IMG/VR virus record: IMGVR_UViG_3300009678_001573
Location: 1 to 64,000 of that record
Length of the DNA: 64,000 nucleotides
Direction: 5' to 3' (one strand)
From: a virus
Lineage: Duplodnaviria > Caudoviricetes
Part shown: positions 10,440 through 50,300 of the stretch, in pieces
How positions within the stretch are numbered: position 1 is the first letter of the stretch
How the letters are laid out: each line of letters begins with the position of its first letter
Notes under the pieces: model-generated
The model's input: the letters and a program-made list of their open reading frames with translations, nothing else
The model's database searches: none
Told to the model about the DNA's origin: nothing
Position numbers and translations under genes: made by a program

Positions 10440-11726
10440 GTGTCAATGAGTACATTACCTTTTAGCAAGGTGATTGCAGTAGACAAGACCAATGCAAATG
10501 CTGACTACACCACCATTCAGGCCGCTATAGATGCGTGCGCAGATGGCGATGTAATCCAGGTAAGTCCTGGGGTTTATAATGAACAGCTAACCCTCCCAAG
10601 TGGTAAGAGCTTTAGAGTAGTCGGTCATGGCGCTGGTGTTGGTGGAACCTCTGTAGAATTACGTCTTGGCGATGGTTATTTAGTTTCTTCACCATCCTCA
10701 GGAGCGGGTGCCGTCTTTTTTGAGAATATGAGTTTTGCCTTATTATATGATGGTTTGTCTGGCAAATCAGCTACAATCTTATGCAATTCTCCAAGTTATG
10801 GAATGGTATTTAAGGGTTGCAAAGTCTTTTCTCAAACTTTTGGCGCATTCGGTGGCCTATTAAATACTGTGTTAGTTAATTGCGGTTATTTAGAAATGTT
10901 TGATTGCGAAGTTTCTTCAGACGACGCGGATTTTATCAATAACGTTAAAGGTTTTGAGTTCCACGCCGGCAATGTAATACTTCACAACACCGCCGTATAT
11001 GGTTATAATAACGCTGACATTGAAGTTAGTGGTGGCAGCGCTATCTTAACCTTAGAGTCCTGCACAGTAGTCGGGTTGCTAAGCGTAGTCCAAGCACAAA
11101 ATATACTCTTGGACAGAGTTTCTAGAATAGGCGCAGTCAGTGGCATTCAGGATAATGATCAGGAAAACATTGCTCTACACAGAAATTATGGTGTGTTGCG
11201 TACCAATGGTCAAAATGATTTATTTAAATTAAATCTACGTCAGTTGGCAAGTGACCCAGCCTCACCAGAAAATGGTGACGTATGGTACAACAGCAATGCT
11301 GGTAAATTTAAAGCCAAAGAAAATGGTTCAGTAGTTGATGTAATTCAGGCTCCAGTTGTTCCGGTTTCAGCAAATCAAGCTTCGGCAACTAGTAGCGCAA
11401 CTACAGCCTCAACTTCATATGTTGCATTAGACAGCATGTCATTAACTCCGGGTGCTGGTAATTATGTGTTAATGTTTGGTACTTCAGCCGAAAACAATAA
11501 CAATAATGCATCAATCTTTTTTGCTGTGTATGTTGATGGCTCTGTCATTCAACACACTGAAAGAGAGACTAGAAGAGGTGGTTCTTCAGCCAATAATATG
11601 GATGTAATTTCTCTACAGGCTTATTTACCAAGTGTCGGTGCAGGTCAAGTAGTTGAGGTTAAATGGAAGACTTCAGCTGGTACTGCTACTGCACGTGAAA
11701 GAACTCTAGTTCTTATGAAAATATAA
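10440..11726 (+). CDS. Beta-helix (pectin-lyase-like) virion protein
   Basis: ADYTTIQAAID...GDVIQVSPGVYNE beta-helix cap, and a domain paralogous to the middle of 15051..17033. Start is GTG 10440 or ATG 10446. Confidence 0.65.
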   Translation: MSMSTLPFSKVIAVDKTNANADYTTIQAAIDACADGDVIQVSPGVYNEQLTLPSGKSFRVVGHGAGVGGTSVELRLGDGYLVSSPSSGAGAVFFENMSFALLYDGLSGKSATILCNSPSYGMVFKGCKVFSQTFGAFGGLLNTVLVNCGYLEMFDCEVSSDDADFINNVKGFEFHAGNVILHNTAVYGYNNADIEVSGGSAILTLESCTVVGLLSVVQAQNILLDRVSRIGAVSGIQDNDQENIALHRNYGVLRTNGQNDLFKLNLRQLASDPASPENGDVWYNSNAGKFKAKENGSVVDVIQAPVVPVSANQASATSSATTASTSYVALDSMSLTPGAGNYVLMFGTSAENNNNNASIFFAVYVDGSVIQHTERETRRGGSSANNMDVISLQAYLPSVGAGQVVEVKWKTSAGTATARERTLVLMKI

Positions 11727-11741
11727 CTTAAGAGGTAAGCT

Positions 11742-13190
11742 ATGCCTATTGGCCAAGCAGACTTAGAAAATGCAGTTCGTGAGGGCTGGGCCAGAGACGA
11801 AGATAATGAATTAAGTATCGACGGGTATAGCGCTACCATACAGGTTACAACAGACGACGGCACCAGCGGGTTAAATTTAAAAAACTCCACTGGTGCCGTT
11901 TCTTTTTCTGCAATGTCCAATGGAGATGGTTATTTCGCCAATAGACTTGGTGTTGGAACTTACAATCCTGAAACTAAATTAGAGGTAATAGGTAAGACAA
12001 GAACTGATGAATTACAAGTTACTACCAATGCTGTTCCTGGATATGTTTTAACTTCGGACGGTGATGGTAATGCTACTTGGCAGCCAACTGGTGCTGTTTC
12101 AGCTGGGGTTTCCGAAACCACTTTCCAAGAAAACAAAAACGCTCAAGAAGAAATAAATAGACAAATACTAAGTTCTATAGATGGTTATGCACAAAATAGT
12201 ACTGTTACTGAAAATAAGAATGCCCAGGAACAAATTAATCAATCTATATTACAATCATTGGATGGATATGCTATTCGTTCAATTGAAGATCAACGTTGGG
12301 TAGATAGCTCTCAACAGTTACAAGACTTACGAGATAGTCTTGATGGTTATGTAGTTAATCCTACATTCGAAGAAAATAAGAGCACTCAAGAAGAAATTAA
12401 TCACCAAGTGTTGGCGGCTCTCGATGGATATGCCCAAAACTCTACTGTAACAGAACACTATGGACAATTCAGTCAAGCAATCCAAGACATAGTTTCGGTA
12501 ATTGATGGTTATTCTACCGATGTTGAGTTTGCTGGTCTAACAAACACGATCACAGAAAACAATAATCAGCAACAACAAATTAATCAAAGTATTCTTAAAG
12601 ACCTAGATGGCTATGAAACAAAAATCTCAGCCCAAGATAACTATGATGCAATTGGTGCGGCTATTAATACTATTCGTAAAGATTTAGAAGATGGTTATGC
12701 AGATATCAGTGGTTCATCAGCTGATGGATACATAGCATTTTTCACTAGCCAAACAAGTATAGCTGGCGATAACGATTTATATTTTGATCGTGTTAATAAC
12801 CAACTACAAGTTTCTGCTTTAAAATTAACAACTGAGCCTAATGATGGATATATTTTAACTTCTGATTCTAGCGGCAACGCAACTTGGCAAAAAAATAATT
12901 CTTTGGATGACTCCGAGCACCGCCAATTAGACCAGCTTGTTCATAATATTGCTGAAGATTCTTTCGAGGAATGTACTTATTCTGGTGCCTTTATTACTAA
13001 CATAACAATTTGGACCAATTCAGATAAAATTAAAAAAATTAGAGAAGAGCAATTTACTTATGTAGGCGCTCAGGTGGCTCAATTAATTACTATTCAATAT
13101 AATAGTAATGGAGATGAAGTGGAGAGGATTACAGAAAATTATACTTATTCTGGTGTTTTTATGGCCAATGTATCAAGGAGTTTAACCTAA
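11742..13190 (+). CDS. Coiled-coil fibre protein with ~27-aa DGY-terminated repeats
   Basis: 482 aa with 11 DGY. Contains the RLGVGTYNPETKLEV and GYVLTSDGDGNATWQ fibre motifs. The N-terminal LENAV..G..RD.D is shared with 7288. Confidence 0.7.
   Translation: MPIGQADLENAVREGWARDEDNELSIDGYSATIQVTTDDGTSGLNLKNSTGAVSFSAMSNGDGYFANRLGVGTYNPETKLEVIGKTRTDELQVTTNAVPGYVLTSDGDGNATWQPTGAVSAGVSETTFQENKNAQEEINRQILSSIDGYAQNSTVTENKNAQEQINQSILQSLDGYAIRSIEDQRWVDSSQQLQDLRDSLDGYVVNPTFEENKSTQEEINHQVLAALDGYAQNSTVTEHYGQFSQAIQDIVSVIDGYSTDVEFAGLTNTITENNNQQQQINQSILKDLDGYETKISAQDNYDAIGAAINTIRKDLEDGYADISGSSADGYIAFFTSQTSIAGDNDLYFDRVNNQLQVSALKLTTEPNDGYILTSDSSGNATWQKNNSLDDSEHRQLDQLVHNIAEDSFEECTYSGAFITNITIWTNSDKIKKIREEQFTYVGAQVAQLITIQYNSNGDEVERITENYTYSGVFMANVSRSLT
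12129..12614 (+). repeat. Tandem ~27-aa helical repeats ending in (L/I)DGY
   Basis: ENKNAQEEINRQILSSIDGYAQNSTVT / ENKNAQEQINQSILQSLDGY / ENKSTQEEINHQVLAALDGYAQNSTVT and others. The same unit recurs at about 15294-15551, 22800-22945, 27830-27895 and 32620-32680. Confidence 0.85.
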
Positions 13191-14461: not shown

Positions 14462-14464
14462 ATT

Positions 14465-15049
14465 ATGGTAAATTTTGGTTCTAGTTTTAATATTCGCGAG
14501 CGCAGATGGTCAGATTTTAAAGAAGAATTATCTGTCAGAGGCGGCGACTTACAATACGATACTCTAGATGATGGATATCAAATTTACTTTGTAGATGAAT
14601 CTGAGATATTTAATTGTGTTATATATACTGGTTCAGTGCCAGATACCATAATTCAATTCTATTCTCAGGAACAAAATGATTTAGACAAGGCAGAGTTTAT
14701 AGGATATTTAAACGATGCTACTAGGCCAGCCCAATTATCATTTGCTACTGCAAATCCTGGCCTCGTAGATGCTTTTAATAGGGTTAGTGTTGCTACTGAC
14801 AATTTTAATGATATGGAAATATCTTGGACTTTTATTGCAGAACACATATTATTATCATTAGAAGGCTCAGTATCTGGAGATATTATTGAATATTCCTTCG
14901 ATGGTATTAATTTACACGGAGATATGAAGGGCAGGACTGTTAGTGAATCAATAGCTTATGACAATAGATTAAGATGCAAAATATGGTTGAGACGCAATGC
15001 TTCTTCGCCGACATCTTCTATTTCAGTTAGAGTTGAGGCTTGGAGATAA
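14465..15049 (+). CDS. Virion protein with C-terminal domain paralogous to 1965..2279
   Basis: IEYSFDGINLHGDM...AYDNR...KIWLRR...VRVEAWR. Confidence 0.6.
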   Translation: MVNFGSSFNIRERRWSDFKEELSVRGGDLQYDTLDDGYQIYFVDESEIFNCVIYTGSVPDTIIQFYSQEQNDLDKAEFIGYLNDATRPAQLSFATANPGLVDAFNRVSVATDNFNDMEISWTFIAEHILLSLEGSVSGDIIEYSFDGINLHGDMKGRTVSESIAYDNRLRCKIWLRRNASSPTSSISVRVEAWR

Positions 15050-15050
15050 G

Positions 15051-17033
15051 ATGTCGGGTTTTAATGGAAATGTAGTTAATGTAGATGATGGATATGTAGG
15101 CACTTTAAATGTTGGTGCTGTAGTATTTGCGCCATCATCTTCAAATCCAATTCCTGGTGGCTCTTCTGGACTATATATAAATGACGATGGTATGTTGGCA
15201 ATTTCTGATACCAACGCCGCGACCTCTGTTATAATTGTTGAAAATACATTTAGTTTAACATTAGATAGTTATGTGGATGACCAAACATTTCAAGAAAATA
15301 AAACAGCTCAAGAAGAAATCAATCATCATATATTAGTTGCTTTAGATGGTTATACTACTGCAGCAAGTTCTGGTGTATCTGAAGATACCTTCCAGGAAAA
15401 TAAGAATGCTCAAAATCAAATAAATCAATCTATATTACAAGCATTAGATGGTTATGGTGGTGGTTCGGGCGTTTCAGAAATCACTTTCCAGGAAAATAAA
15501 AATGCCCAAGAACAGATTAATGATACTATTCTTGCTTCGTTAGATGGCTATGCTTCTGCTCAAGGTACTGCCACCCAACTTGCCTATTTTTCAGGAACTA
15601 ATACTTTAACATCAGATACTAATTTATCATTCGATACAACTAATAATAGACTAGTTGCCTATTCTATACAAGTAACTGGTGATCCGGGCGATGGATATAT
15701 ATTGACTTCGGATGCTAATGGAGTTGGTTCGTGGCAACGAGCACCAATAGCATTTCCGTCAAATAGAGTATTTACTGTTGATGCTACTCACCCACAAGCC
15801 GACTTTACTACTATTCAGGATGCCATTACTCACGCTTCTGATGGTTATATGATTATAGTTAGCCCAGGCTCTTATAACGAACAACTTACTTTGCGTGCTG
15901 GAATATCACTTGAAATAATTGGGTCAAGTAATAATGCTGCTGCTTATGTTGATGTAAATTGGAGTTTTTCTACAGATGGTTATATAATAACAGCCCCTGA
16001 TGCTGGTGCAGGAACTACTGTATTTAAGAATATGAAATTTAGTCTCACATATGATGGGTTTAATAATTCTACTGCTATATTGAGAATGCCAAGCTCAAAT
16101 TATGGAATTACCTGTGAAGATTGTACTTTTTCAGCAATAACTCAAGGTCCAACCGGCGGAAGAATGATGGGAGCCCTAGTATATGGTGGACAACTAGAAT
16201 TAATAAATTGTGAATTGTCGGCCGATGATAATGATGGAATTTTTGATGTAGATACTATCAGAATAGGTGGCGGAAATGTATTTCTTAAAAATACCACTAC
16301 CTATGGATTTAATAATGCTGATATTAGAATAGATGGCGGACAAGCTTCTTTAACTATAGAAAATTCTACTGTAGTTGGTACGATTGTAGTTGGAAATGTT
16401 CAAAATATATTCTTAGATAGAGTTTCTAGAATTGGGGCAATTACTGGAAATGTTTCAGATACTGATACTGAAACGAAATTGACTAGTAGGGTTTATGGCG
16501 TTGGCCTTACAAATGGCACTAACGAATTTTATAAATTGCACTTAAGAGAGCTTGGAACCGAAGATGTTGGTTCTCCTGGCGACGGCGAGATATGGTATTC
16601 GAGAGCCGCCGGCCGATTCAGAATGAAAGAAAATAGTGTTATTAAAGATATGATTCCATATTCTACACTAGACGGATATTCTTCTGCCAATAAACGAGAA
16701 AAATCCATTACTATTGAAAGCCCAACTGCTGCTGAGGATGTTTCTTGGTTTTTCGTAAATAGGGCAGTTACTGTAACAGAAATTAGAGCAGTGTTAGTTC
16801 AATCTGCTGTTTCACCGTCAGTAACTTGGACAGTTAGACACGGGACTGATAGGAATGCATCTGGCGCCGAAATTGTTACCGGTGGAACAACAACAACCAG
16901 TATAACTACAGGAAGTGATGTAACCTCATTTAATGACGCGACTATTGTTGCTGATAGTTTTATTTGGGTAGAGACAACAGCATCAGCTAATACGGCTCAA
17001 CTACACTTAACTCTGTTTTATACTGAGGATTAA
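15051..17033 (+). CDS. Mosaic fibre protein (DGY coiled-coil repeats plus beta-helix)
   Basis: Likely start is ATG 15051 (SD GGAG at 15042), not 14997. Three ENK.AQ..IN..IL..LDGY repeats and an ADFTTIQDAI...VSPGSYNEQ beta-helix paralogous to 10440. 8 DGY. Confidence 0.7.
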   Translation: MSGFNGNVVNVDDGYVGTLNVGAVVFAPSSSNPIPGGSSGLYINDDGMLAISDTNAATSVIIVENTFSLTLDSYVDDQTFQENKTAQEEINHHILVALDGYTTAASSGVSEDTFQENKNAQNQINQSILQALDGYGGGSGVSEITFQENKNAQEQINDTILASLDGYASAQGTATQLAYFSGTNTLTSDTNLSFDTTNNRLVAYSIQVTGDPGDGYILTSDANGVGSWQRAPIAFPSNRVFTVDATHPQADFTTIQDAITHASDGYMIIVSPGSYNEQLTLRAGISLEIIGSSNNAAAYVDVNWSFSTDGYIITAPDAGAGTTVFKNMKFSLTYDGFNNSTAILRMPSSNYGITCEDCTFSAITQGPTGGRMMGALVYGGQLELINCELSADDNDGIFDVDTIRIGGGNVFLKNTTTYGFNNADIRIDGGQASLTIENSTVVGTIVVGNVQNIFLDRVSRIGAITGNVSDTDTETKLTSRVYGVGLTNGTNEFYKLHLRELGTEDVGSPGDGEIWYSRAAGRFRMKENSVIKDMIPYSTLDGYSSANKREKSITIESPTAAEDVSWFFVNRAVTVTEIRAVLVQSAVSPSVTWTVRHGTDRNASGAEIVTGGTTTTSITTGSDVTSFNDATIVADSFIWVETTASANTAQLHLTLFYTED

Positions 17034-17035
17034 GC

Positions 17036-17701: not shown

Positions 17702-17716
17702 AAGTTGGAGGCTCTA

Positions 17717-21623: not shown

Positions 21624-21866
21624 ATGAGAAAATTAGAAAAACTTACCGTAGAGTATATTGGCTATTTACAGCCAGAAACTGAAGATGAATTACAGATGGA
21701 AATATTAGGCCTAGAGAATGCTATCAAAAATGCTGGATTAAGAATATCAGTATTAAAACAAGCCTCGCATTTAAACGAGATGATGAAAAAAGCTAAGATA
21801 GTAGGAGACAAGGCAGATGAAAAAACTGTCAATTCGTCAGTTGATACCCCTGATAAAACTGAGTAA
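21624..21866 (+). CDS. Hypothetical protein
   Basis: 80 aa, SD AAGGAG. Confidence 0.55.
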   Translation: MRKLEKLTVEYIGYLQPETEDELQMEILGLENAIKNAGLRISVLKQASHLNEMMKKAKIVGDKADEKTVNSSVDTPDKTE

Positions 21867-22344: not shown

Positions 22345-25300
22345 ATGGCAGATAAGATAAAAATCCGTAGAGGCGACTTTGTTGATTTACCTAATCTAGA
22401 CGAGGCTGAATTTGGTCTTGCCACAGATACTGGTACTTTATATATTGGTACTGAAGAAGCAACAAATATACTTATTAACCCGGTATTAGAACACGGTGAT
22501 GGTTACTCTATAGACGGCTATCTTATTCCTGCCGTAGACAACGTTCATAATCTTGGAACGCCAGATAATCGATGGGCAAGCGTGTATGTAGGCCCAGGAA
22601 CTATTAACATAGTAGCAAAAGACTCTGATGCTGGATTTTCGACAAACACAGAATATAGAATAGGAATTGATTCTGCATCTGGTACCTTACAAATTGTAGC
22701 AGGCGATAATGATTTGTTGATGGTATTAGATCCAGATACCGGTGTTACTTTCCCGGCGGGCGGCTCTGTTGAAGCTGATCCAGGACTAACAAATACGGTA
22801 ACCGAACATTATAATCAGCAAGGTCAAATTAATCAAGATATTATTAAGGCACTTGATGCCTACGGTGGAAGTGCAACAGAAGACGAACACTATATTCAGC
22901 AAAGTCAAATAAATCAATCCATTCTCCAGTCTTTAGATGGCTATGCTTCTGTTCCAAATACCAATGCAACTGGCGATGGCTATTTAGCATTTTATACTGG
23001 TGTTGGCCGTAACCTGGCCGGCGACAATGATTTATTTTGGGATAGAGAAAATGGCAGATTGGGTATTGGTACAGACTTACCCAATTCGACCTTAGATGTT
23101 AGGGGTATAGCTACATTTATTGGTGATACTGGTGTCGGTGGCCATTCTTTTATAGCTTCAGGTGCTAATACTAATAATAGACGCGGTATTTTGGTAGAGC
23201 ATAGAACATCCGGGGTAATGACTGATGGTTTTGGAATTCGTATTCAACTCTCCCATCGTGATTCAGATGGCATATCGAATGTAGTAGCGGAATTAGGTAC
23301 TTCTCGGGTCGGCTCGGATGATTCGGGTGATTTACTTTTCCTAACGGCTTCTGGTGGGGTCTTAACAGAAAAACTTCGTATCGGCGCAAGTGGAAATTCT
23401 ACTGTAAGCGGAGATTTTACTGTTGCGGGCTCTATAATAAATAAAGACTTAACAGAAACTTTTCAAGTAATTCGTCAGGCAACAGATGGCTATGCTTCAG
23501 TTCCAAATACTGCTGCCATCGGAGATGGATATATAGCTTTCTTTATCGATGGTGGAAGACAAATCGCCGGCGATAATGATTTGTTTTATAATAGAGAAAG
23601 TGGTAGTTTAGGCGTAGGGATAGATGTACCAACTGGCAAACTTCATGTAACAGGGCCTTCTGGTACTGCAGCCCTTGTCCTAGATACCCCTGTGGGTATT
23701 AATGGAACTGCTCTAGCAATGAAACAGTCTGGATCTGCAAGTCCTACTAATACATCATTAACCTTCTCACCACGAGCTGATGGAACAGAACATTGGGTAT
23801 TTGGAAGTGATGGAACTACTTTCAAAAACTATATGTCTTTTGACTATGATGGCTTCCTAGTTAAATTCGGCCCCGGTGGCTCATCGGGCGGCCTTGATAC
23901 TCTAGTTGCCGATCTTGCCAACGGACGAGTTGGTATTTCAACTGCTATTCCAGTGGCTAGGCTTGAGGTTGAAGATAATGCTATGTCTAGTGGTATGGTA
24001 GTCAAAATTACTCACGATGATCATAATGTATATGGATTAGTAATAGGCAACGATACATTTTCTACCACCGACACAGATGGCATGGCTATGTATGTTGATA
24101 ATAGCGGTGTCTCTGTGTTAGATGCGAGAGGAACTGCCTCTAGGCTTTCTGTTCAAGTAGGCGGAACAGATAGAATAAGAATTACCAATACTGGGCTTGT
24201 TGGCCTTAGTACAGCTACACCCCAAAACAGATTAGATGTAGAAGGTGCAGCGGTAATAGGTGCCACATATGCTGGTACTAATACAGCACCTACAAACGGC
24301 CTGCTTATAGAGGGTAATGTTGGTATAGGTATAACAACAGTAGGTAGCACTCAAGTAGATGTAACTCAATCTACATCTAGTACAGTTGTATCTGGTGTTG
24401 ATATTTCAAACGATAGCACTGGTGATGCTTTTATAAGATTCGGCCTAGGAGCCTCTCGTGGTTATTCTATGGGCATCGATAATTCAGATTCTGATGCTTT
24501 AAAAATAGGTACGGCCGCTAATACAGCTTCCGGAGTGGATACCGGCACCTTTATGGTAATGACTACTGCCGGTTCAGTCGGTGTTGGCGGAACCCCTATT
24601 AATGGCAAGTTTGAAGTTAATACCGCCCTTGATGAAGCAGTGGTTTCTACAGCTTATGCCAGTATAGCTGGAGTCAATGCTCGCGGTGTTTTACAGGCAA
24701 GAGCAAACGGCGGCGGCGTAATATTGGGTATGAATAACACCACCCATAGTGCATATACCCGTGGTGGCGAAGCAATGAATGGTGCCGCTGAAATGGTAAC
24801 TTTCAATGCTGGTGATGCGGTAACCAAATTTATAATAGGAAATGTTAATGCATCGCCTATTCATTTCATTATAAATGATACTAAGGCCGCTACTATAAGT
24901 TCCAATATGAATGTAGGAATTGGAACTCAAAATCCAATCGAACGACTTACAGTAAATGGTTCTATAGCATTACAGGAATTGGCCACTAGTGAAGTTCCAG
25001 TAGCCCAAGATGGCTATGGTAAAATATACGTTAAAACAGATGATAAACTATACTATAAGGATGGTTTAGGTGCAGAGGGGATAATTACTACTTCTGTTGA
25101 TGGGGCAGATGGTTATATTGCTTTTTATACCAGTGCGGGTGCTCTCGCCGGCGATAATGATTTATTCTATGATAGGGTAAATAGCATTTTAAGTGTTACT
25201 GGCGGCGTAAGTGAAGTCCAAGTTGGTGATTCAGATTTTAAATTTGACTTTCAAGCCGGCGGCGAGGGAGTTCCGGGAATAGTGTTTGATTCCGGCAACG

Positions 25301-35500: not shown

Positions 35501-38500
35501 TGGCCCAATAGTTCAGGCAACAAACGCTGTTGTAGTTTCTAGTGCATCTATGACCGTCACTTCTGCTGGTAGCGCAAGTACCATAGTTGGTAAAACTACT
35601 GGTTCTGTATCAGCAGCAAGTGTCACTGGTGTCGGTCATAATATTAATATCGGAACTGGTGTTGCTGAAACAACCGCTATCGGTGCTGGGGCTACGGCAA
35701 CAGTTGCTAATTCTACCGCTGTGGGTTCTGGTGCTAATGCCGGCGGGACCAATGGAACCACTGCCATCGGTAGAGGAGCTACAGCAACAGGTTCTGACTC
35801 ATTAGCGGTTGGAACTGGCGCAACAGCCAATTCAACTAGTACCACAGCAGTGGGCGATGGTGCTTCAGCTACTGGCTCTAGTTCAACTGCTATTGGACAA
35901 ACTGCTCTAGCTAATCAGCCATCTACTGTAGCTATCGGGCAGAATGCTAGAGCCCAAGCTGCTGGTGGTGTTTCGGTAGGCGCTGGTACAAATATTACTG
36001 GCTCAGTAACAGATGCGGTCGCTATTGGTCTCGCATCTTCTGTATCAGCCTCTGGCGGTATTGCCATGGGCTCAGGCTCATCCGTTACTTCTGCTGCAAC
36101 TGGTGGGTCTGTCGTAATTGGTTTAAGTGCATCTGCCTCAAAGGCAAACTCGATTGGTATAGGCGCTGGTGTCGGAACAGATGACTCTGTTGTGGTGGGT
36201 GTCAGTGCCAGCTCATTTGGTACCGGCGCAAGCAATGTAATTATAGGAAAAAGCGCTACTAATGGTGGATTAAGTTCATCGGTGGTTTCTATTGGAGCAT
36301 TTTCCCAGGCCACAGCATCCAATTCTGTAGCTCTGGGAGCATCATCATCTGTCACTGGTGCAGGCTCAATTGCAATAGGAAATAATGCCAATACTTTTGC
36401 CTTTACTAATTCTTTAGCTATTGGTAATGGATCAGTTGTTTTGGCAAATAATACTGGAACAATAGGAAACCCTAATTCTCCAATTGATTTATATACTTTT
36501 GGTAAGTTCGGCGTAGGAATTTCTCCAAGTGCTTTGTTTAATTTTAATATTGAGTCCGCTGGTGATATTGGGCCTAATGTAGATGATGCGTATAGTCTTG
36601 GTTCCGAAGCATTTAGGTGGCGAGATGGATATTTTGGCCCCGGCACTCTACATTTTAGACAAAATTCGGATGAAAATGATTTTGGTGTAGAGCGAGATTG
36701 GAACTTTGGAATTAATTCTTCTGGCGATTTAACTATTCGTCAAGATGATATGGTTTATGCTAAATTTAGTCATGATCGTCCAATAAGTCTTGGTACCCAG
36801 GCAATAACTTCGCGCGGCCTTGGTGCTGGTAGCGTAATAGTTGGAGGCCAGCTTGAAGTCGACGGTCGAATATGGGCAGATGGTGATATAACTACAACCA
36901 CCCTAACTACCACTGCTATATCTGGTGTCGGCGGCGTATTTTTTGCCAATTCACCATTCTTCTTCTCATCTGGAGAACAATCAGTTGGGTTGGCATTAAA
37001 TCAAACATTTGATCAATTTGTATTTGCCACTAATGCCCTATCAGGAAGGGCAGTAGTATTTACAGATGTATCAAATTATACCAAAGATCACGATCATGAT
37101 ATCCAGGGAAATCCGGCCATATTTATACACAGCATTACAGATGTAGATGTAGATAATTCGCAATGGTTAGGTTTTTATCACGATACAACTAAAGCTAATA
37201 TCGAAACTGGTTTAGGTTCCATCTCACTTGCCCCATACGATGGTTATGTATTACCCGCAGCGGACGATGCTTATTCAATAGGCTCTCCATCATTGCGCTG
37301 GAAAGATATATGGTTGGGTCCAGGTACATTGCATTTTAAACAAAATACTTCTGAGAGCGATACTGGCTTAGAGCGCGATTGGACTATGGGAATAGATAGT
37401 TCTGGTGGCTTTAGGGTAAGACAATCAGAAGAACATCATATGCTTCTTAAGACAGATGGCACTAATAATGTTATATTTGGTAAAACCATTAGTACGGTAT
37501 TTGGAAGTAACATTACTTCAATTGGTTTTGGTACAAATGTCGGATCAAGTATTTCTAATGCTACAGCGGTTGGTCAAGGTGCACAAGCTACAAACTCATT
37601 TGCAACGGCAATGGGCGTTAGTTCCAATGCAACCACCAATTGTGTTGCCATGGGTGGTGGCGCTGCAGCCTCAGTAGCATCTAGTGTTGCTATTGGCTTC
37701 TCTTCTACAAGTTCTGGTGGAAATTCAACTGCAGTCGGTGCATCTGCATCTGCTACAGGTTCTAATGCAACATCATATGGCTCTTCTGCTGTTGCAGGTG
37801 GCACTAGTGCTGTTTCAGTAGGATTTCAATCTCAAGCTAATATATCAAATGCTATTGCCATAGGCAACACTAACGTAATAGGTTCTGGTGGTGGTATTGC
37901 TATAGGAAACAATCTTACCTTTAGTTCTGGTACTTCTAATAGCATAATTATTGGAACACTTGGTGGTACCCTTACTGGCGCAAGTAATACCTCTATTGGT
38001 ATAGGTAATACTGTTGGCACTGGTATAGCAAATGTTACGGCCATAGGAGCTTCATCAACGGCTAATGCAACAGATGCCACAGCGGTTGGTCAGGGTTCAT
38101 CAGCAGCAGCAGCTAGTGCTTTAGCAGTAGGTAAGAGTGCCTCGGCAGCTGGTACAAATACTACGGCAATTGGCGCTAATACTATAACCACAAGCGGTGT
38201 AAATCATACGGCGGTGGGTAAAGGTGCTACAGCCTCCAATGTTAATGATAATAATACAGCCATTGGTTATAATGCAATTGCTACAGGTGGACACTCGATA
38301 GCAATTGGTGCTTCATCTAATGCTTTGGCCGGCTCAAATGATTCTATAGCAATAGGTTATAATTCATCGAATAGTTCTTCTGATTCTGTACTTCTTGGTA
38401 ATAATGCAACCATTGGTGCTTCCTTTACGGGTGCAATAGCAATTGGTGCCTCCTCTTCTGCCTCTGGAGCTGATACCATTGCCATTGGCCGTTCTTCTGG

Positions 38501-39389
38501 TGGCGGTGCTGGGGCCGTAGTTATCGGAGCAGGAACTGTTGGAACCGGAGCCAGAACTGTCAACATAGGTAATGGAACAGCGAACGGTTCAACTGATGCT
38601 ATTACTATAGGATATACTTCTCAAAGCGCTGCCAATGAAAGTGTAACAATTGGTGTAAATTCGTTAACTACTAGTAGTACTGGTAATGGTACTGGTTCAA
38701 TGGCTATCGGCTCGGGTGCGCAATCTGATGGTGGCGGTATAGCAATTGGAAAAGATGCTATAGCAAACAATACTAGCTCTGGTAGCAGGTCTATTGCTAT
38801 AGGTTATGGCGCCACTACTGGTACATTTACTAGTGCTTTAGCTATAGGTAATGGTGCTTCTGCTACTGGAAATAATAATGGACAAATTGGAACTATAGCT
38901 AATCCAATAAACCTAAATCTTCATGGTTCATTGACATTAGATGGATATCTTTCAACCAGTTCTGGTGATTTATTTCTTACGCCGACAAGTGGAAGGGTGG
39001 TGCCAGGAGCTACTACAGAAGGCCTAGGTAATGCTGATAATCGTTGGTTAGATGGATATTTTGTTGATTTAAATACAAAGGGCTTGGTATATGGAATAGT
39101 TAATATTGAAAGTTCTGATTCTCCATATTTAGCAAGAGAGGATGATTATACTATAATTTGCGATGGTACTATCGGAGTTATTACCATATTATTACCAGGT
39201 GCCGGCGGAAGTAATATTGGCAGAATATATAATATTAAAAAAATAGATGCTATAAGTACAATTACTGTTCAAGCATCTGGATTAGAAAACATCGATGGTA
39301 TAAATTTTATTACTCTAACTACCCAATATCAATCAAGGCAAATACAAAGTGATGGCAATAATTGGCATATCATAGGAGGATTGCTCTAA
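32523..39389 (+). CDS. Giant fibre/adhesin with three blocks of YadA-like head repeats
   Basis: 2288 aa. Many ~14-aa STA(I/V)G..A.A repeats at about 32870-33460, 33800-36500 and 37500-38920, separated by GPNVDDAYSLGS..RW.DGYFGPG connectors. The C-terminal ITILLP...IKKID...IDG...SDGNNWHII resembles a phage fibre tip. No signal peptide or autotransporter barrel. Confidence 0.8.
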   Translation: MTLFIGQQKFEGIKIGDQLLTDTLDGYGTTIDEHHQQQEQINQTIIQALDGYALAPEVGSGADGYVAFFTGTSSVAGDNDLFWDREGNRLGIGTSTPTSKLQVVGNASVRAVGGSSGSEQFGENASASATNSTAIGSSTIASGSTSLAVGREAEAIASGVISIGYQANSGIVGVSTGSMAIGRFTQTPAIQATAIADGAFAMSNGSLAIGVNAGTGYTDNTKTHQTVVGNGARAASHRSTAIGIAAAAGDTNVDATSAIAIGDTSKSDGVNSIALGTSASATKSNAFAIGASAVTSADNQGIFGNSITPINLVNFGSMALGTPSTAQNFKLEVAGDVGPNVDDAYSLGSETFRWKDGYFGPGSLHIISTAAENNSGFTRDWVLGTNDTGGIAIKTSGASKLSFNSNSNTWFSSGNFSSREPGGASNSEQFGELAIASGTDSTAVGRGATANNTSTTAIGSGAQATSAANNTAIGQNAQAVNSGDSTVIGMSALANGGDGVAVGRSAQATANRAVAIGRNSVSSQSEATALGYGSAAQQVQAVGIGAFSNANQIGATAIGALATATGTGAVSIGSSAGASVTNGIAIGSSTTAAATNTVIMGAAVSTTSGATNATVIGKPVGTVSSADVTSLGHNTTITGARITVIGHNAIAQNDDVTAIGRGTQVTGLQSTSLGSSTVATGASAVSVGFGASSTGSANTAIGHNSVTGSSGSNTAIGKSAQAGGDNAVAVGETAIATAVRAIAVGADASAASTNSIAIGQGASAGPLGTNANCIAIGFGTQANGANGATAVGSTATASAAQSTALGKDTLANQTNATAVGYSADATGGDSTALGSQSTASSSGTTAFGSSATASGSNSTAIGATTNATNTSTVCIGASSRAAGSASLAIGQNAQAQTGADNTILIGQGIQTTNPSAVAIGSSIGSNIGSNSIAIGTSSNANALTSVAIGTGATANTAHSVALGASSVATGTNGSTALGRDAQATGADSTSIGHGPIVQATNAVVVSSASMTVTSAGSASTIVGKTTGSVSAASVTGVGHNINIGTGVAETTAIGAGATATVANSTAVGSGANAGGTNGTTAIGRGATATGSDSLAVGTGATANSTSTTAVGDGASATGSSSTAIGQTALANQPSTVAIGQNARAQAAGGVSVGAGTNITGSVTDAVAIGLASSVSASGGIAMGSGSSVTSAATGGSVVIGLSASASKANSIGIGAGVGTDDSVVVGVSASSFGTGASNVIIGKSATNGGLSSSVVSIGAFSQATASNSVALGASSSVTGAGSIAIGNNANTFAFTNSLAIGNGSVVLANNTGTIGNPNSPIDLYTFGKFGVGISPSALFNFNIESAGDIGPNVDDAYSLGSEAFRWRDGYFGPGTLHFRQNSDENDFGVERDWNFGINSSGDLTIRQDDMVYAKFSHDRPISLGTQAITSRGLGAGSVIVGGQLEVDGRIWADGDITTTTLTTTAISGVGGVFFANSPFFFSSGEQSVGLALNQTFDQFVFATNALSGRAVVFTDVSNYTKDHDHDIQGNPAIFIHSITDVDVDNSQWLGFYHDTTKANIETGLGSISLAPYDGYVLPAADDAYSIGSPSLRWKDIWLGPGTLHFKQNTSESDTGLERDWTMGIDSSGGFRVRQSEEHHMLLKTDGTNNVIFGKTISTVFGSNITSIGFGTNVGSSISNATAVGQGAQATNSFATAMGVSSNATTNCVAMGGGAAASVASSVAIGFSSTSSGGNSTAVGASASATGSNATSYGSSAVAGGTSAVSVGFQSQANISNAIAIGNTNVIGSGGGIAIGNNLTFSSGTSNSIIIGTLGGTLTGASNTSIGIGNTVGTGIANVTAIGASSTANATDATAVGQGSSAAAASALAVGKSASAAGTNTTAIGANTITTSGVNHTAVGKGATASNVNDNNTAIGYNAIATGGHSIAIGASSNALAGSNDSIAIGYNSSNSSSDSVLLGNNATIGASFTGAIAIGASSSASGADTIAIGRSSGGGAGAVVIGAGTVGTGARTVNIGNGTANGSTDAITIGYTSQSAANESVTIGVNSLTTSSTGNGTGSMAIGSGAQSDGGGIAIGKDAIANNTSSGSRSIAIGYGATTGTFTSALAIGNGASATGNNNGQIGTIANPINLNLHGSLTLDGYLSTSSGDLFLTPTSGRVVPGATTEGLGNADNRWLDGYFVDLNTKGLVYGIVNIESSDSPYLAREDDYTIICDGTIGVITILLPGAGGSNIGRIYNIKKIDAISTITVQASGLENIDGINFITLTTQYQSRQIQSDGNNWHIIGGLL

Positions 39390-44314: not shown

Positions 44315-44329
44315 TAAGAGGTTTATTAG

Positions 44330-47300
44330 ATGGCAAATTTTGAGGACAAAAACAAGGAACAATTAGCAGCCGCCGAGAGGTATTTGAGCGATAAGGCCAA
44401 TACTCTTGGCAAAGATGCTAATTTGATTTCAGAACCATTTGTTCGTAGTGATAAAGTACCACACAGCGATATTATGACCCAAACACCCTCTGCTAATGAA
44501 GGTCTACTTGCGCCCAATTATGATGATTATCCTACGGAAGGTGCAATAGGAACTAGATATCCTACTGTAAGATTACTTTCATATTTGCCATCAGGATTAA
44601 CTGGACCAAATTCTGTTCAGACCTTTATGGCTATCACTGGCGCACCAGCAACTAATAACCCAATTGATATAGAAAGTGTACGTCTCAAGCCGCTAATTTC
44701 GCCAAAATTTTCACAAGGTAAAGCTAATGCAGCCCACGGTGATCCTAACTTTAGGGGCTTTGAATTGGCCTTATATCCAGCTAAATCTACGGGTGGTATA
44801 GGATTTGCACTAGAAGCTGATACTACTAATGGCCCAATATCCATATTGGCTGATCCTGGCGCCGGCCCGCCAGCAGATATTGCGCCTGGAATGGGAAACG
44901 ATGGGTTTTGGACCGTAGATTATAATAATGGTATTGTAAGATTTAGTCGTGCACCACTTAATGGATCATCCGGAGTGATGAATCCAAATAATGTATATGG
45001 CAACATAGAAGGGGCCGAAGTATCTGATGCTTATGGCGCTATTACCATGTTTGCCACTTTCTATCACTATACAGGTGATTATGGAACTAGCTCTAACTTA
45101 GGTTTTGTAACAGTAGGCGATGGTTATGTAAGCGAAGGTATATTTAATGGTGTAGGACAAAATACCTTACAAGCCGCTATTGATTCAGTTGCTGCTCAGG
45201 GCGGAACAGTATTTGTTAAGCCGGGAAATTATACTTATGATGGATTTGCAGAAATTCCAGTTAATGTAAGTGTAATTGGTTTAAATGGCGTTGTAATAAC
45301 TAAAGCAGCAGAAGATCCGGCCTTTGTTATTACTGGAAGTAATTCTGTCTTAGATAATTTTCATATCACTTCTGTTGGCTCAAACGCAAAGCCAGTAATA
45401 CAGCTATCTACCGATGATCCAAATACTACTCTTGAAAATGTTGTTATAAAAAACATTAGATTAGATGTTGATGCAGATTCTTATGGTATTGGATTCTTGC
45501 CAGAGTATACCAATACTTTATACAAAAATATAACAATAGAGAAAAATATATTTTCTCCAATTAATGCCAGGGCCACTTATATAGGTCTTGTGTATCCAGA
45601 AACGGATGGATATGCATCTTTTGAAAAAATTAATATCTTCGATAATGATTTTGGAGGTGGCGGCTTTAATTCAGTAGCTATCCAATTTACAGGATCGCAG
45701 ATATCTAAATTTAATGATTGTGGTATTTTGAGAAACCATGCCTATACAAATTCATCAATTATATTAGGATCACCAACTGCTGTATTTGAGCATTTTACGA
45801 TTGCAGATAATAATATGGCATTTTCAGATTTAATGTTCCATGGACTTGAGCTTGCAGCATCGCATATATCAGATTCGCAATTTGGACGAGTTACCTTACA
45901 TCATGATGGAAATTTCTTTGGTGGTTTATTTGATATAAATATAGATAATAATATAATTCATGATCAATTCGATATGGGCGGTAGAATTTCTGCAGCATCT
46001 ATATCATCTAATACCATGTTGGAATCTACAACCAATATATATGGTAGCGCTTGGGTAAGAGAAGATTACCCATACTATGGTCAGCACTATGCTATTACCG
46101 AGGGTAATGGCACCTGGCTTGTAGTAGGCGGAGATGATGACGTATATGTTGGAGATACTTTTCTTGCCTCTACTGATAATGCCGATACTTGGCATCGTAG
46201 AAAATCATCTTCATTTATATCAAATTCCTCTATTACATTTCATAAAATACGAAGTATAGAGTATGGTAATAATATTTGGGTTGCTGGCACTGATGCTGGA
46301 ACAATCCGTGTTTCTTCGGATGCAAATAATTGGACGCACACATTCCAGTCTCCATGGGGTGTTTTTGGGGTAGTTTACGATGGTTATAGTATGTGGAATA
46401 CTGTCGGTGGATCTGGCGGTGCAGCTGGTGTAATTCATTGGTCAACAGATGCCATTAATTGGAATACCGCAAGCAATATACCCGCAGTTACTGTTAATGC
46501 CGTAGATTATGATGCATCTACCGGATTACGTGTCGCAGTCGGTGGCAGCGGTGGTACGGCAGGAATATTTACTTCAGATGACGGAATTAACTGGACTAAT
46601 AAAGTTTCTCCACTGGCTACAACTTTTAACGATGTAACTAGCAATGGCGTAGGATACTGGGCCGCCGTGGGTAATAGCGGCGGTGTCATCACATCTGACA
46701 ATGGTATAGATTGGGTCACTAGAACCACCGGAATAAGCAATGCCCTTCGTGGCGTTGCTTATGGTAATGGTATTTGGGTTGCAGTAGGTGCAGCGGGTTC
46801 AATAGTTACTTCTACAGATGGTATTACCTGGACCTATAATATTACTTTCCCATTCTTGGTGACTAGTGAGAATTTTAGAGGCATTCATTTTGAAAATGGT
46901 CAGTTTGTAATGGTCTCTGAAATAAACATATATACTTCTGTTGATGGTGCAACTTGGGCACGGGCAGAAAATAAATTTACTTGTAATGCTCCTATATATG
47001 ATGTAGAATATGATGGTAATGGTACTTGGGTTTCTGTAGGACATATAGAAACGCTTGGCGCACCATATATTGCGTATTCTAAAAATAACGGCAAAGATTG
47101 GACAAGATCTATTCTTCCCGGCGTAACATCAGCTGGCTCAGGATTACGTGGCGTAGATTATGGCAATGGTGTTTGGTTGGCCGCAGGAGATACTAATGTG
47201 TTGGGCACTCCGGGTGTAGCTACATCTACCGATGGTGTTACTTGGAACTGGCTTTCTGAGATAGGATTGCCTCCATTAGAAAAGATTCATTACGACGGCT

Positions 47301-50300
47301 ATAGTATGTGGACTGCTGTAGGCTCAAGCGGAGTAATTCGTAACTCTACCGATAATGGCGCAAGCTGGACCTCAGCAACATCAGGTGTAACATCTACATT
47401 AAGAGATATTCATTATGCAAACGGTTTAAGAGTTGCCGTCGGTGATATAGATATTGGTACTGGTGTAATACTAACATCTCCGGACGGTACAGTGTGGACC
47501 AGAAGAACAACAGGTCTTGCTGTTAATGTTAATGGCGTTACTTATTCACATGTTCATGGTTTATGGGTTGCTGGGACAAGCTCTGGTACTATTTTTACTT
47601 CAACAGACGGCGAAGTATGGACCAATACAGCAGATATAGGAGACCCAATCAATCATATAAAGGCAAATGATAATGGTGAATTTGTTGCCGTAGGTGCTGG
47701 TAACTCAGGCGGAAATAAGCCCGAAATATATTATTCTACAAATGGTATAACCTGGCAAACCAGATATGTGCCTCTACCATCACATAATGCTAAGTTATCT
47801 AGAATTAGTTATGGTGCAGGGAGATGGATGAGTGTAGGGTCACATGACACCACCGGTCCAGCTATAATTATGTCTTCGATGACACCTCAATTTGATTATA
47901 CATTAAACAATGTTGCTATAGAGGGCAATGAATTGCTTGCACTTAAGATGCCACTTGGTAGTACAAACAATTCTGTCAATATTAATGACAACGATTTGCA
48001 TCTAGAGTTAGAAATTGGCGGACAATTAAGTAAGAGTAATATAAATAATAATAGGGTTGGTTCATCAAAAGATCTTTCTCAGGGCGCCAGTGTGCGCTTT
48101 GGTGGCATGGATAGATGCAATGTAAGCAATAACGTATTTGAAGCAGATACATTTGCAACACTACTAGGAACTTCTGGTTTTGTTATTAGCGGTTCTACAT
48201 TCTCTAATAACAAAATTGTGCCTCAGCTCACCGAATCTTTAACAGCCAATATATCTTTGAACTTCCAGGATTCTATTTTCGAAGATAGTTATATTCAGGG
48301 TGCCTTTACTTTTGCAAGTCCAAGAGTAAATAGTGTTATCAGGGGAAATAGAATTACGGGTTCACTAACGCTAACAAGCGATTCGGATAATTGTCTGATA
48401 GCAGACAATATAATTACTGGAACTTTTAGCAGTGGTGACTTTGATAGCTCCCTATTTAATAATAACACAACGGCTGGAGCTACATTTGGGCTTATAGCCA
48501 ATTCAGCATTAAATGAAAATAGGATGTCATCCTGGGTTTCTGGGGCTGTTCTTTCTTGTATACTTGCTGATAACAAGATTTTCTCATCTTGGACTTCTGG
48601 AGAAATCTTTGACTCTATTTTATCAAGCAATACTATTCTTGGTTCATTTAGCCCAGGCTCAGCGAATGTCTCTAAGACGCAAATGCTGAATAATATAATT
48701 ACTGGAAATATGTTATGGACTGGGTCTGTATTTGATAGCATGTTTAGTAATAATACTTTGGGTAACGCCGCAGCCGGCGCAGGCTGGACTATTTCAAAGA
48801 CATTCGTAAATAATATTGTATCTGGAAATAGAATAGCTAGCTTTACAACCAATGATATTTTTGACCAGGTATTATACACAAATAATTATACAGAAAATTT
48901 CACTGGTAATAATTTAATACAGCGATCTGTTTTTTCAGACGGATACTATACTAACATATTTAATGTTCTAAATGCTTCAGGCGGAAATGATACGGCGGCT
49001 ATGAAAGACTGCACCATATCAGGTAATTGGTTCGGTGGTCAGCTTTTCATAAACTCTTCACATGCAACTGCTCTTACAGTAGATAATGTCAATATATCAA
49101 ATAATATAGTGCAAAGCTCAATAGATATAGCGCCGTCTTCTTCTGTAGTTGGTAATATAACTAAATTAGTTATTGCCTCCAACAGTGTAGTGTCTGCGAT
49201 TAATTTAGGAAATACTGGATTACCACCAAGCACAGTAAGTTGCACAGATGTTAGTGTAACGGACAATAAGGTTGGAGTAGCTGGCTCATCCGGTGATTTT
49301 GTAATCGGTGGCCAAATAGTAGATTCTAAAATTACAGGCAACTCTATAGGATTTACATTTACATTAGACTATGCAGATGGCGTAGACATTAGTTCTAATA
49401 CCTTGAGAAATGTCGTTACCGACTATATGACTAATTGTGTGTTCTCTGGAAATAAAGTATCTGGTACGGTTGCATTTGGAAATACTGGGTCATCTAGCAC
49501 AATAGATATAACGGCCATAACCAATAACGTGTTTGAAGATGATATTACCTTTGCCGAAACTTCTGGTGGATGCTATGCGGTAATACTTTCTAATAATACA
49601 AGCCAAGGCATATTTGTAATGTGCTCAGATTGGAACCGTTGTGTTATTTCTAATAACACAGTTGATGGATCCGGTGGTCTAGCGGCTATAGAAATTGGTA
49701 CGGCGGTCAATAATGGGGCCGTCACTGAAACGGTTATTGCAAATAATCAGGCAGAATTCGGATTCTTCTCTCACTCACAATTCGATGAAGTGGTATTTTG
49801 TGGCAACAGAATATCTTCATTTGAGATAGAAATAGATGCAGCTGCTAGTTTAAGTCGTTGTGCAGATCAAAGTGCCTTTATAGGCAATTGGATAGAAAAT
49901 GAAATGGTGTTTGATTTCAATCGCACAACGAGCTCTGCTGTTATCAATCAATGTACTATATCTAGCAACTCCATCGAGTTCAGTGGTATAGATATTAGCA
50001 CTCTTGGTGCTAATGCTATAGCCCTTTCTACCATTTCTAGCAATGCTTGCAACGGTGGACTAATCATAACCTCTACTAGCACTGGAGACACAGTTTCTAG
50101 ATGTAATATAAGTTCTAATTCATTCTTTGGTGCTATGACTATTAATCATACCGGAACTAGTGGTAGTGTATTATTTGATTCTGTCATAGGAAATAATAGC
50201 ATTACCTCTGGCAATATGGATCTTGGCCTCGGCGTCACCGGCACAGAAACTATTACTGTATTAAATGGATGCAGTGTAATAGGAAATAGAATATCAGGCG

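What the first reader, a model, noticed from the sequence alone, without database searches (positions are those of the whole stretch)
10440..47400. DGY present or absent at homologous positions in paralogous modules
Seen: ACADGDVIQVSPG (10440) versus HASDGYMIIVSPG (15051); VPGYVLTSDGDGNATWQ versus PNDGYILTSDSSGNATWQ within 11742; RWKDIWLGPG versus RWKDGYFGPG within 32523; GTATQLAYFSG (15051) versus GADGYIAFY/GADGYVAFF (22345, 32523); propeller blades EYDGNGTW and YGNGIW versus VYDGYSMW and HYDGYSMW (44330). These folds evidently tolerate lacking DGY. Inference: the motif was acquired repeatedly and independently at permissive loops, as expected for a selected sequon rather than one inherited repeat.
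Basis: partly seen in the sequence, partly recalled or inferred. Interest (0 to 1): 0.7.

Follow-up and report, generated by a model that had tools for sequence, protein, structure and literature searches.

The report
DGY tag gained repeatedly on phage fibres
In this uncultured giant phage the three-residue motif Asp-Gly-Tyr has arisen many separate times, by different mutations, in tail-fibre and other outer virion proteins whose relatives elsewhere lack it, so it behaves like a selected surface tag, but what reads it is unknown.

Summary
Observation confirmed. All 13 quoted strings are at the stated genes. DGY occurs 95 times in the 95.9-kb contig against 5.3 expected. It occurs only in the coding frame, with 14 codon combinations. 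NGY, EGY and DGF are not enriched. After collapsing repeated modules, 67 distinct sequence contexts remain.

- Beta-helix cap: homologues have xGD or xGN (8 of 8).
- LTSD module: xG[Y/K], with DGY in 3 of 69.
- RW module: xVY, DAY or DLY (0 of 6).
- AFF module: xxQ (0 of 8).
- Propeller blade: YGNGx[F/Y/W] (0 of 1280).

About 575,000 residues of outgroup proteins show no DGY excess. Relatives with similar capsids do show it (323 against 47 expected). In one 65-member orthologue family, four DGY sites are ancestral and 13 columns show at least 24 gains.

So the motif is a clade-specific, selected linear tag. Many copies are simply inherited with duplicated modules. No modification has been shown. 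The fibre-embedded sulfotransferase is not conserved with the trait, whereas a GT4 glycosyltransferase is. This scan had already noted the DGY tag in at least 32 other genomes.

The parts
10440..11726 (+). ORF 10440 (428 aa): beta-helix fibre or neck protein. The cap reads DGD (nt 10542-10550) and there is a DGY at aa 78 (nt 10671-10679).
   Evidence: It is a paralogue of ORF 14997 (45% identity over 301 aa). There is a weak match to a PHROG neck protein.
11742..13190 (+). ORF 11742 (482 aa, 11 DGY). It has 27-aa helical repeats ending in LDGY, one AFF module and two LTSD modules. One LTSD module reads PGY (nt 12036) and the other DGY (nt 12843).
14997..17033 (+). ORF 14997 (678 aa; the database protein starts at nt 15051; 8 DGY). 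It contains coil repeats, an AFF-type module without DGY (nt 15564), an LTSD module with DGY (nt 15690) and a beta-helix. The beta-helix has derived DGY at the cap (nt 15840), at the first rung (nt 15975) and in the linker (nt 16671).
16698..17030 (+). C-terminal module of ORF 14997, about 110 aa. It is shared at 60-76% identity with over 1000 representative proteins that are not DGY-rich.
   Evidence: In one search, 1102 hits had E below 1e-10. In one search the top 150 hits held 8 DGY against 10.3 expected. There is no Pfam or PHROG family.
22345..26661 (+). ORF 22345 (1438 aa, 10 DGY): fibre with three DGY-bearing AFF modules, including GADGYIAFY at nt 25102.
26661..27371 (+). Sulfotransferase-domain gene (236 aa) lying between two paralogous fibre genes.
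   Evidence: PF00685 scores 23.2 bits against a cut-off of 22, and PF13469 scores 26.3 against 27. The family is absent from the complete related genome G002 and from G003.
27381..30764 (+). ORF 27381 (1127 aa, 9 DGY): a paralogue of ORF 22345.
32523..39389 (+). ORF 32523 (2288 aa, 8 DGY): fibre with YadA-head-like repeats. Its RW modules read KDGYF (nt 33588), RDGYF, LDGYF and KDIWL (nt 37305). An AFF module reads GADGYVAFF (nt 32703).
44330..52183 (+). ORF 44330 (2617 aa, 6 DGY). It has a beta-propeller of the bacterial cell-surface type. Four blades read (D)GNGxW and two read YDGYSMW (nt 46379 and 47294).
2919..6026 (+). ORF 2919 (1035 aa, 8 DGY): fibre with two RW[KR]DGYF modules. It lies outside the stated range but belongs to the same module family.
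53558..56590 (+). ORF 53558 (1010 aa, 3 DGY): a conserved outer tail or baseplate-type protein, used here as the orthologue test family.
56600..61687 (+). ORF 56600 (1695 aa, 5 DGY): a distant paralogue of ORF 53558. The two share only one of their eight DGY sites.

Best explanation
DGY, or more exactly D-[G, less often A or S]-Y, is a derived short linear motif specific to this clade.

Where it is found. The clade consists of uncultured jumbo phages related to Bacillus phage G. The motif sits in turns, loops, helix ends and linkers of their outward-facing virion proteins.

How it arises and persists. It has been created many times independently by different point substitutions. Once present it is kept by purifying selection and multiplied by module duplication and local tandem expansion.

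How it most likely works. It is a recognition tag read by a factor specific to the clade. The strict need for Asp (not Asn or Glu) and Tyr (not Phe or Trp), with a small residue between, suggests that the Asp carboxylate and the Tyr hydroxyl are presented together. The most likely reader is an enzyme acting on the tyrosine. The leading candidate is the GT4-family glycosyltransferase encoded at the end of the tail operon.

What is shown and what is inferred. The enrichment, the derived state, the convergence and the conservation are shown.

My sub-probabilities:
- derived and repeatedly gained under selection: about 0.9
- a read tag of some kind: about 0.7
- a covalent modification of Tyr: about 0.4
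- modification by the GT4 enzyme: about 0.3
For: Specificity.
- DGY occurs 95 times against 5.3 expected.
- DGF is 1.1x expectation, NGY 0.2x, EGY 0.5x and DAY 3.8x. The same-composition controls YGD and GYD are 0.9x and 0.8x.
- The signal is only in the coding frame.

Many independent contexts. There are 67 flank clusters, of which 60 are singletons.

Derived in all five tested module families (Fisher p values).

No excess in outgroup proteins.
- 8 against 10.3 expected in 72,634 aa.
- 45 against 38.8 in 219,830 aa.
- 61 against 59 in 282,872 aa.

A clade-wide trait.
- 323 against 47 expected next to related capsid genes.
- 58 to 165 coding-strand motifs against 14 to 44 controls in five large relatives, clustered in fibre blocks.
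- Only 52 against 19 in Bacillus phage G.

Orthologue family of ORF 53558.
- 234 against 13.7 expected.
- Four columns are ancestral (37 to 64 of 65 sequences).
- 13 columns show at least 24 gains, against 2 to 8 columns for the permuted tripeptides.
- No lost site reads DGF or DGW.

Position in the fold.
- D509-G510-Y511 is conserved in 64 of 65 sequences, inside an indel-rich variable hairpin loop.
- 13 of the 17 DGY columns lie in loops.

Tandem arrays in relatives. There are 8 DGY in 41 aa and 5 in 20 aa. No single turn or helix cap could explain these.

GT4 homologues. They are present in the contig itself and in all 6 DGY-enriched relatives searched. They are absent from three non-enriched fragments and from Bacillus phage G.
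Against: - No modification has been shown.
- No coordinates were available to measure surface exposure.
- The GT4 association is confounded by shared ancestry, and fragments that lack the tail block lack both features.
- Bacillus phage G has a mild excess (2.7x) without the GT4 homologue.
- GT4 enzymes have many other roles.
- DG followed by an aromatic residue is also a good beta-turn or helix stop. The best-conserved site is exactly a hairpin turn.
- Flank preferences are weak.
- Some outgroup samples are small (RW n=6, AFF n=8, beta-helix n=6 to 8).
Confidence: 0.5

Rival explanations
1. DGY is a non-covalent docking or ligand-binding motif. It would be a multivalent contact for a host surface polymer, or a handle for a clade-specific assembly chaperone or accessory virion protein, with no chemical modification.
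For: It rests on the same evidence as the tag reading: specificity, convergence, conservation inside variable loops and tandem arrays. The motif is concentrated on fibres and receptor-binding-type proteins. No writer enzyme is proven.
Against: The motif also sits in helix-repeat stalks and inner parts of fibres, where ligand contact is less likely. No candidate binding partner was identified. Co-occurrence with the GT4 gene favours an enzyme reader only weakly.
Confidence: 0.25
2. DGY is a purely structural preference, acting as a type I' turn or helix stop followed by an aromatic residue. It became fixed in this lineage by history and spread through module shuffling and gene conversion, and nothing reads it.
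For: The invariant site of ORF 53558 is a hairpin turn with Tyr opening the next strand. LDGY ends each 27-aa helical repeat. A third of the sites are co-inherited with modules.
Against: - The same folds in other lineages use GD, AGK, GNG, PGQ or xVY and have no DGY excess.
- Asn-Gly, normally favoured in such turns, is depleted 5-fold, and Phe never replaces Tyr.
- Ala and Ser replace Gly at homologous sites, which a positive-phi turn would resist.
- Back-to-back DGY arrays cannot each be a turn.
- There are 60 singleton contexts.
Confidence: 0.12
3. DGY tyrosines are sulfated by the sulfotransferase encoded between the two paralogous fibre genes (26661-27371).
For: A sulfotransferase-domain gene lies inside the DGY-rich fibre block. 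The flanks are acidic and poor in Lys and Arg.
Against: The family is absent from the complete DGY-rich genome G002, and from G003 and G001. The contig itself served as the positive control. From general knowledge, known tyrosine sulfation sites have the acidic residue directly before Tyr, whereas Gly is there here. The domain match is marginal.
Confidence: 0.04
4. The pattern is chance, a compositional bias or a DNA-level signal.
For: None found.
Against: Poisson p is below 1e-47 even under the Markov expectation. Permuted tripeptides are at expectation. The motif is absent from the other two frames and uses 14 synonymous codon combinations.
Confidence: 0.01

Closest known systems
Short protein-glycosylation sequons: N-X-S/T; bacterial PglB D/E-X-N-X-S/T; Bacteroidota O-glycosylation D-(S/T)-(A/I/L/V/M/T). 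This comparison is from general knowledge.
   Same: The motif is three residues long, has an obligatory acidic residue near a hydroxyl or amide acceptor, sits in exposed loops of many unrelated proteins, and is gained and lost freely during evolution.
   Different: The presumed acceptor would be tyrosine. No glycan or any other adduct has been shown. The proteins are made in the cytoplasm, not exported. The motif is confined to one phage clade.
Virion glycosylation of mycobacteriophages by phage-encoded glycosyltransferases (Freeman et al. 2023, recalled from memory and not read here)
   Same: Phage glycosyltransferase genes lie next to virion genes, and the surface of the particle is the presumed target.
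   Different: As I recall it, in those phages the sugars go on Ser/Thr-rich C-terminal extensions of capsid and tail-tube proteins. Here the motif is a dispersed D-G-Y tripeptide on fibres and baseplate proteins, and the capsid protein has none.
Convergently evolved short linear motifs on virus surfaces, such as RGD loops of adenovirus penton base and other viruses (general knowledge)
   Same: A tripeptide arises independently in variable surface loops of unrelated viral proteins because a partner reads it.
   Different: RGD has a known receptor. DGY has no known reader and is present in tens of copies per protein set.
Structural turn motifs of the same folds: the Asp-box or YGNG blade turn of beta-propellers, and the GD cap of right-handed beta-helices
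   Same: DGY occupies exactly these turn positions in ORF 44330 and ORF 14997.
   Different: In 1280 outgroup blades and 8 homologous beta-helix caps (6 of them clear outgroups) the canonical residues are kept and DGY never occurs.

Membership tests
Inherited sequence repeat (one ancestral DGY-bearing unit) | The flanks of the copies are recognisably homologous. | tested here: not met
   Only 35 of 95 sites fall in 7 multi-copy flank clusters, and 60 are singletons. The feature holds for the coil, AFF and RW modules only.
Ancestral structural motif of the folds | Homologues outside the clade carry DGY at the same positions. | tested here: not met
   The counts are 0 of 8 (of which 6 clear outgroups), 3 of 69, 0 of 6, 0 of 8 and 0 of 1280.
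Ancestral structural motif of the folds | Conservative replacements (Asn for Asp, Phe or Trp for Tyr) are tolerated. | tested here: not met
   NGY is 0.2x expectation, DGF 1.1x and DGW 0. Lost sites in 65 orthologues never read DGF or DGW.
Post-translational modification sequon | A short fixed motif containing a modifiable residue, enriched in one class of proteins. | tested here: met
   The motif is D-[G/A/S]-Y and is concentrated in fibre and outer tail genes. The capsid protein and most small proteins have none.
Post-translational modification sequon | The motif lies in accessible loops. | tested here: inconclusive
   13 of 17 DGY columns map to loops of an AlphaFold model with pLDDT 81.5. 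Solvent exposure could not be computed.
Post-translational modification sequon | A dedicated transferase is co-distributed with the motif. | tested here: inconclusive
   A GT4 homologue is present in the contig itself and in all 6 enriched relatives searched. It is absent from 3 non-enriched fragments and from Bacillus phage G. The sample is small, phylogenetically non-independent and confounded by fragments.
Post-translational modification sequon | A covalent adduct is demonstrated on the motif. | not testable with these tools
   This needs mass spectrometry of virions or of co-expressed proteins.
Tyrosine sulfation site | A sulfotransferase is conserved together with the motif. | tested here: not met
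   PF13469 matches only in the contig itself and weakly in G005. It is absent from the complete genome G002 and from G003.
Tyrosine sulfation site | An acidic residue lies directly before the tyrosine (general knowledge of TPST, plant TPST and RaxST substrates). | tested here: not met
   Gly (less often Ala or Ser) is at position -1 and Asp is at -2.

The most novel reading that the evidence does not exclude
D-[G/A/S]-Y is the sequon of an undescribed cytoplasmic protein-tyrosine O-glycosylation system of a large clade of jumbo phages. A conserved GT4-type transferase encoded after the tail genes would write it, coating fibres and baseplate with sugars. The repeated convergent gains documented here would be the evolutionary footprint of selection for more glycan sites.
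Probability: 0.3. Interest if true: 0.9.

Novelty: new variant of a known kind. Interest (0 to 1): 0.72.

Why it matters
Convergent gain of one exact tripeptide, by different mutational routes, in unrelated domains of tens of virion proteins across hundreds of uncultured giant phages is strong evidence that something specific reads it.

That would bear on host recognition, on environmental stability and on how fibre genes are annotated.

The motif is also a cheap sequence marker for outward-facing virion proteins in this clade. The evolutionary pattern gives clear, testable targets, namely single sites with known ancestral states.

No paper describing the motif in phages was found in the library searched.

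Tried and rejected
- BLASTN of 10440-17033 and TBLASTN of ORF 14997 against 50,697 isolated phage genomes found nothing.
- Searches of ORF 14997 and ORF 44330 against PDB sequences found nothing.
- I walked the region after the Bacillus phage G capsid gene, but its layout differs and it holds no fibre block.
- Orthologue mapping in the 10-kb capsid flanks of 80 relatives was limited. The fibre cassette is hypervariable, and only L005 and L006 have orthologues of ORFs 2919 and 7288.
The RW pattern gave mostly noise, with 4 real hits. The AFF pattern gave a single hit. HMM and regular-expression searches of sequences already in hand replaced them.
- The representative search with the beta-helix half was dominated by the C-terminal module. 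Only about 8 hits covered the cap.
- Foldseek on the ORF 53558 model gave only weak matches to receptor-binding and baseplate proteins, with TM at or below 0.24.
- Flanking-residue analysis gave no strong extended motif.
- I rejected the DNA-level, compositional, single-repeat, ancestral-fold-motif and sulfotransferase-writer explanations, for the reasons given under the rival explanations.
Full report
**What the window is**

The window is the first 64 kb of a 95.9-kb IMG/VR virus contig, estimated 24% complete. All long ORFs are on the + strand. The first gene is a major head protein (phrog_2522). It is 54.6% identical to gp27 of Bacillus phage G. It is 72-95% identical to the capsid genes of at least 80 uncultured contigs of up to 442 kb.

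The stretch 2919-63073 is a long run of fibre, adhesin-like and outer tail genes with few family matches. The matches are YadA-head repeats, weak Mtd_N and endosialidase-stalk hits, and a tail-fibre PHROG.

The compared segments are homologous. ORF 10440 and the C-terminal half of ORF 14997 align at 45% identity over 301 residues. The other pairs fall inside BLAST alignments between or within the proteins.

The background fact behind the finding also holds.
- DGY occurs 95 times in the contig's 31,154 ORF residues, against 5.3 expected from composition and 13.1 from a first-order model.
- It is the most over-represented of all tripeptides.
- The enrichment is exact. DGF is at 1.1x expectation, DGW and DGH at 0, NGY at 0.2x, EGY at 0.5x, and YGD and GYD at 0.9x and 0.8x. 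Only DAY shares it, at 3.8x.
- It acts at the peptide level. GAYGGNTAY occurs 95, 0 and 0 times in the three frames of the coding strand and twice on the other strand. It uses 14 synonymous codon combinations.
- 63 of the sites lie in 10440-47400.

**One inherited repeat does not explain it**

Clustering the 95 sites by their 12+12 flanking residues gives 67 clusters, 60 of them singletons. That is still more than ten times expectation.

Inheritance does matter, however. Seven module families hold 35 sites. They include the 27-aa helical repeat ending in LDGY, the 'GxDGY[IVL]AF[FY]' module (called AFF here) and 'RW[KR]DGYF' (called RW). In paralogous alignments DGY faces DGY in 127 pairs. It faces something else in about 33 pairs, such as DAY, DSY, DIW, DGD, ATQ, DTD or DSD. 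The diverged paralogues ORF 53558 and ORF 56600 share only one of their eight sites.

**The refutation test, example by example**

1. Beta-helix cap. A full scan of 1.84 billion representative proteins with residues 254-678 of ORF 14997 gave 1860 hits.
   - In the eight homologues that cover the cap, including the paralogue ORF 10440, the position reads DGD, AGD, TGD or AGN, never DGY.
   - The Tyr therefore replaced a conserved Asp. The codons are GAT in ORF 10440 and TAT in ORF 14997.
   - The second DGY (aa 327) is shared only with ORF 10440 and one close relative. More distant homologues read SSY, TGA or SGS.
   - The third (aa 559) is unique. None of 71 outgroup linkers has a DGY.
2. LTSD module. 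A pattern anchored only on LTSDxxGNATW found 69 instances in IMG/VR contigs of all sizes.
   - The preceding residues are xG[Y/K].
   - Among the copies with GY, the first residue is A, S, N, Y, P, T or V. DGY occurs 3 times in 69.
   - GY is therefore old and the Asp is new.
3. RW module. Six outgroup copies read EVY, SVY, DAY, HIY and DLY (twice). The Tyr is old and the Gly is new. Two clade copies read DIW or DIF.
4. AFF module. Eight outgroup copies read NNQ, DNQ, PGQ, DSQ, NNE or DGQ. Thirteen of 15 clade copies read DGY.
5. Propeller. 119 outgroup proteins, mostly bacterial cell-surface proteins, contain 1280 blades. Their turn is YGNGx[F/Y/W]. None reads DGY.

Fisher tests are significant for the AFF, blade, LTSD and beta-helix rung comparisons. 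They are weak where samples are small.

The ancestral states differ between modules: DGD, DGN, xGY, x-hydrophobic-Y and xxQ. This is convergence on the tripeptide by different mutational routes.

**Outgroup proteins have no DGY excess at all**

- 8 against 10.3 expected in the 150 best relatives of ORF 14997.
- 45 against 38.8 in 80 unrelated phage fibre loci.
- 61 against 59 in the propeller proteins.

The folds do not call for DGY. The lineage does.

**The trait belongs to the clade**

- ORFs around 67 related capsid genes hold 323 DGY against 47 expected. Single loci reach 15-22x.
- Five large relatives carry 58-165 coding-strand motifs against 14-44 for the reversed-pattern control. The motifs cluster in blocks. 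In G001, 62 lie in the first 16 kb and about ten in the next 79 kb.
- Bacillus phage G has only 52 against 19 in 497 kb.

**An orthologue family shows both conservation and turnover**

ORF 53558 has 65 full-length orthologues at 42-56% identity. They hold 234 DGY against 13.7 expected, in 17 alignment columns.
- Four columns are ancestral on a midpoint-rooted tree, with DGY in 60, 64, 38 and 37 of 65 sequences.
- One column reads DSY, DAY or DGY.
- The 13 columns inferred as absent at the root account for at least 24 gains by parsimony.
- The five same-composition permutations occupy 2-8 columns each.
- When a site is lost it becomes unrelated residues, never DGF or DGW.

An AlphaFold model built on this alignment (pLDDT 81.5) adds position information.
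- It puts 13 of the 17 columns in loops, mostly indel-rich ones.
- D509-G510-Y511 is conserved in 64 of 65 sequences. It forms the turn of a hairpin inside a stretch where half the columns are gaps, so it is a conserved island in a variable loop.

Smaller families agree. At ORF 19739 residue 73, three close relatives have DGY and twelve have KGL, KGN and similar. At ORF 39781 residue 345 the count is one against three.

**What the motif is for**

Several features speak against a purely structural turn and for a linear motif that something reads:
- the exclusive use of Asp and Tyr;
- the acceptance of Ala or Ser for Gly;
- the absence from the same folds elsewhere;
- the retention inside variable loops;
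- the back-to-back arrays in relatives, with 8 DGY in 41 residues in G001 and 5 in 20 in G009.

Flanks show only weak preferences: no Pro at +1, few Lys or Arg, and Asp at -3.

Two candidate writers were checked.
- The sulfotransferase-domain gene at 26661-27371 is not conserved with the trait. The family matches in this contig and weakly in G005. It is absent from the complete genome G002 and from G003 and G001.
- The GT4-type glycosyltransferase at the end of the contig has homologues in all six DGY-enriched relatives searched. It has none in three non-enriched fragments or in Bacillus phage G.

The GT4 result is suggestive only. The records are related, and fragments that lack the tail block would lack both features.

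**Comparison with what is known**

The closest analogues are three-residue glycosylation sequons with an obligatory acidic residue and convergent short linear motifs on virus surfaces. No known system uses D-G-Y. The paper library returned nothing on it in phages.

Earlier notes of this scan describe the same DGY enrichment in at least 32 other genomes of the clade. The tag itself is therefore not new to the scan. What this report adds is the polarity test: the motif is derived and convergently gained relative to outgroups.

**Verdict**

The evolutionary inference of repeated, independent, selected gains is supported. The word 'sequon' remains a hypothesis.

Noticed in passing
window 16698-17030 (ORF 14997 aa 568-678): This C-terminal module of about 110 aa is 60-76% identical to the C-termini of over 1000 representative proteins with very different N-terminal parts. 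It has no Pfam or PHROG family and is not DGY-rich. It looks like a widely exchanged fibre-tip or chaperone-like domain of unknown function.
   Followed up: partly
L228 (G001:C1:7400-7900, - strand) and L229 (G009:C1:9800-10150, - strand): Two relatives carry tandem arrays of the motif in acidic segments: 8 DGY within 41 residues and 5 DGY within 20 residues.
   Followed up: partly
window 26661-27371: A sulfotransferase-domain gene is wedged between two paralogous fibre genes. Its family is sporadic in the clade, present here and weakly in G005 but absent from the complete genome G002.
   Followed up: partly
window 1027-22341 compared with L003-L082: The block between the capsid gene and the conserved genes at 19739 and 21817 is a hypervariable fibre cassette. 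Relatives with 85-95% identical capsid proteins mostly carry unrelated fibre genes there.
   Followed up: partly
window 44330-52183, residues 560-1100: The propeller of this 2617-aa protein is of the type found in bacterial cell-surface proteins (precomputed Pfam PF25852). It is 27-37% identical to proteins of Paenibacillus, Cohnella, Opitutales, Spirosoma and others. No phage orthologue appeared among the 120 best hits in the length range searched.
   Followed up: no
window 2283-2915: An endonuclease VII/HNH-type gene (phrog_1035) sits about 1.3 kb after the capsid gene, just before the first fibre gene.
   Followed up: no
window 53558-56590, alignment column 833 (residue 741): One column of the orthologue family reads DSY (30), DAY (19) or DGY (8). 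The real motif therefore seems to be D-small-Y, with Gly preferred elsewhere.
   Followed up: partly
window 21817-22341 and 17705-18211: Two small conserved genes have weak sub-threshold matches, to Peptidase_M91/eCIS core and to the Peptidase_C92 amidase.
   Followed up: no
P0048 (orthologue of ORF 53558): One orthologue is deposited as a protein of a 'Patescibacteria group bacterium' MAG on a 247-kb contig. It is probably a mis-binned phage contig of this clade.
   Followed up: no
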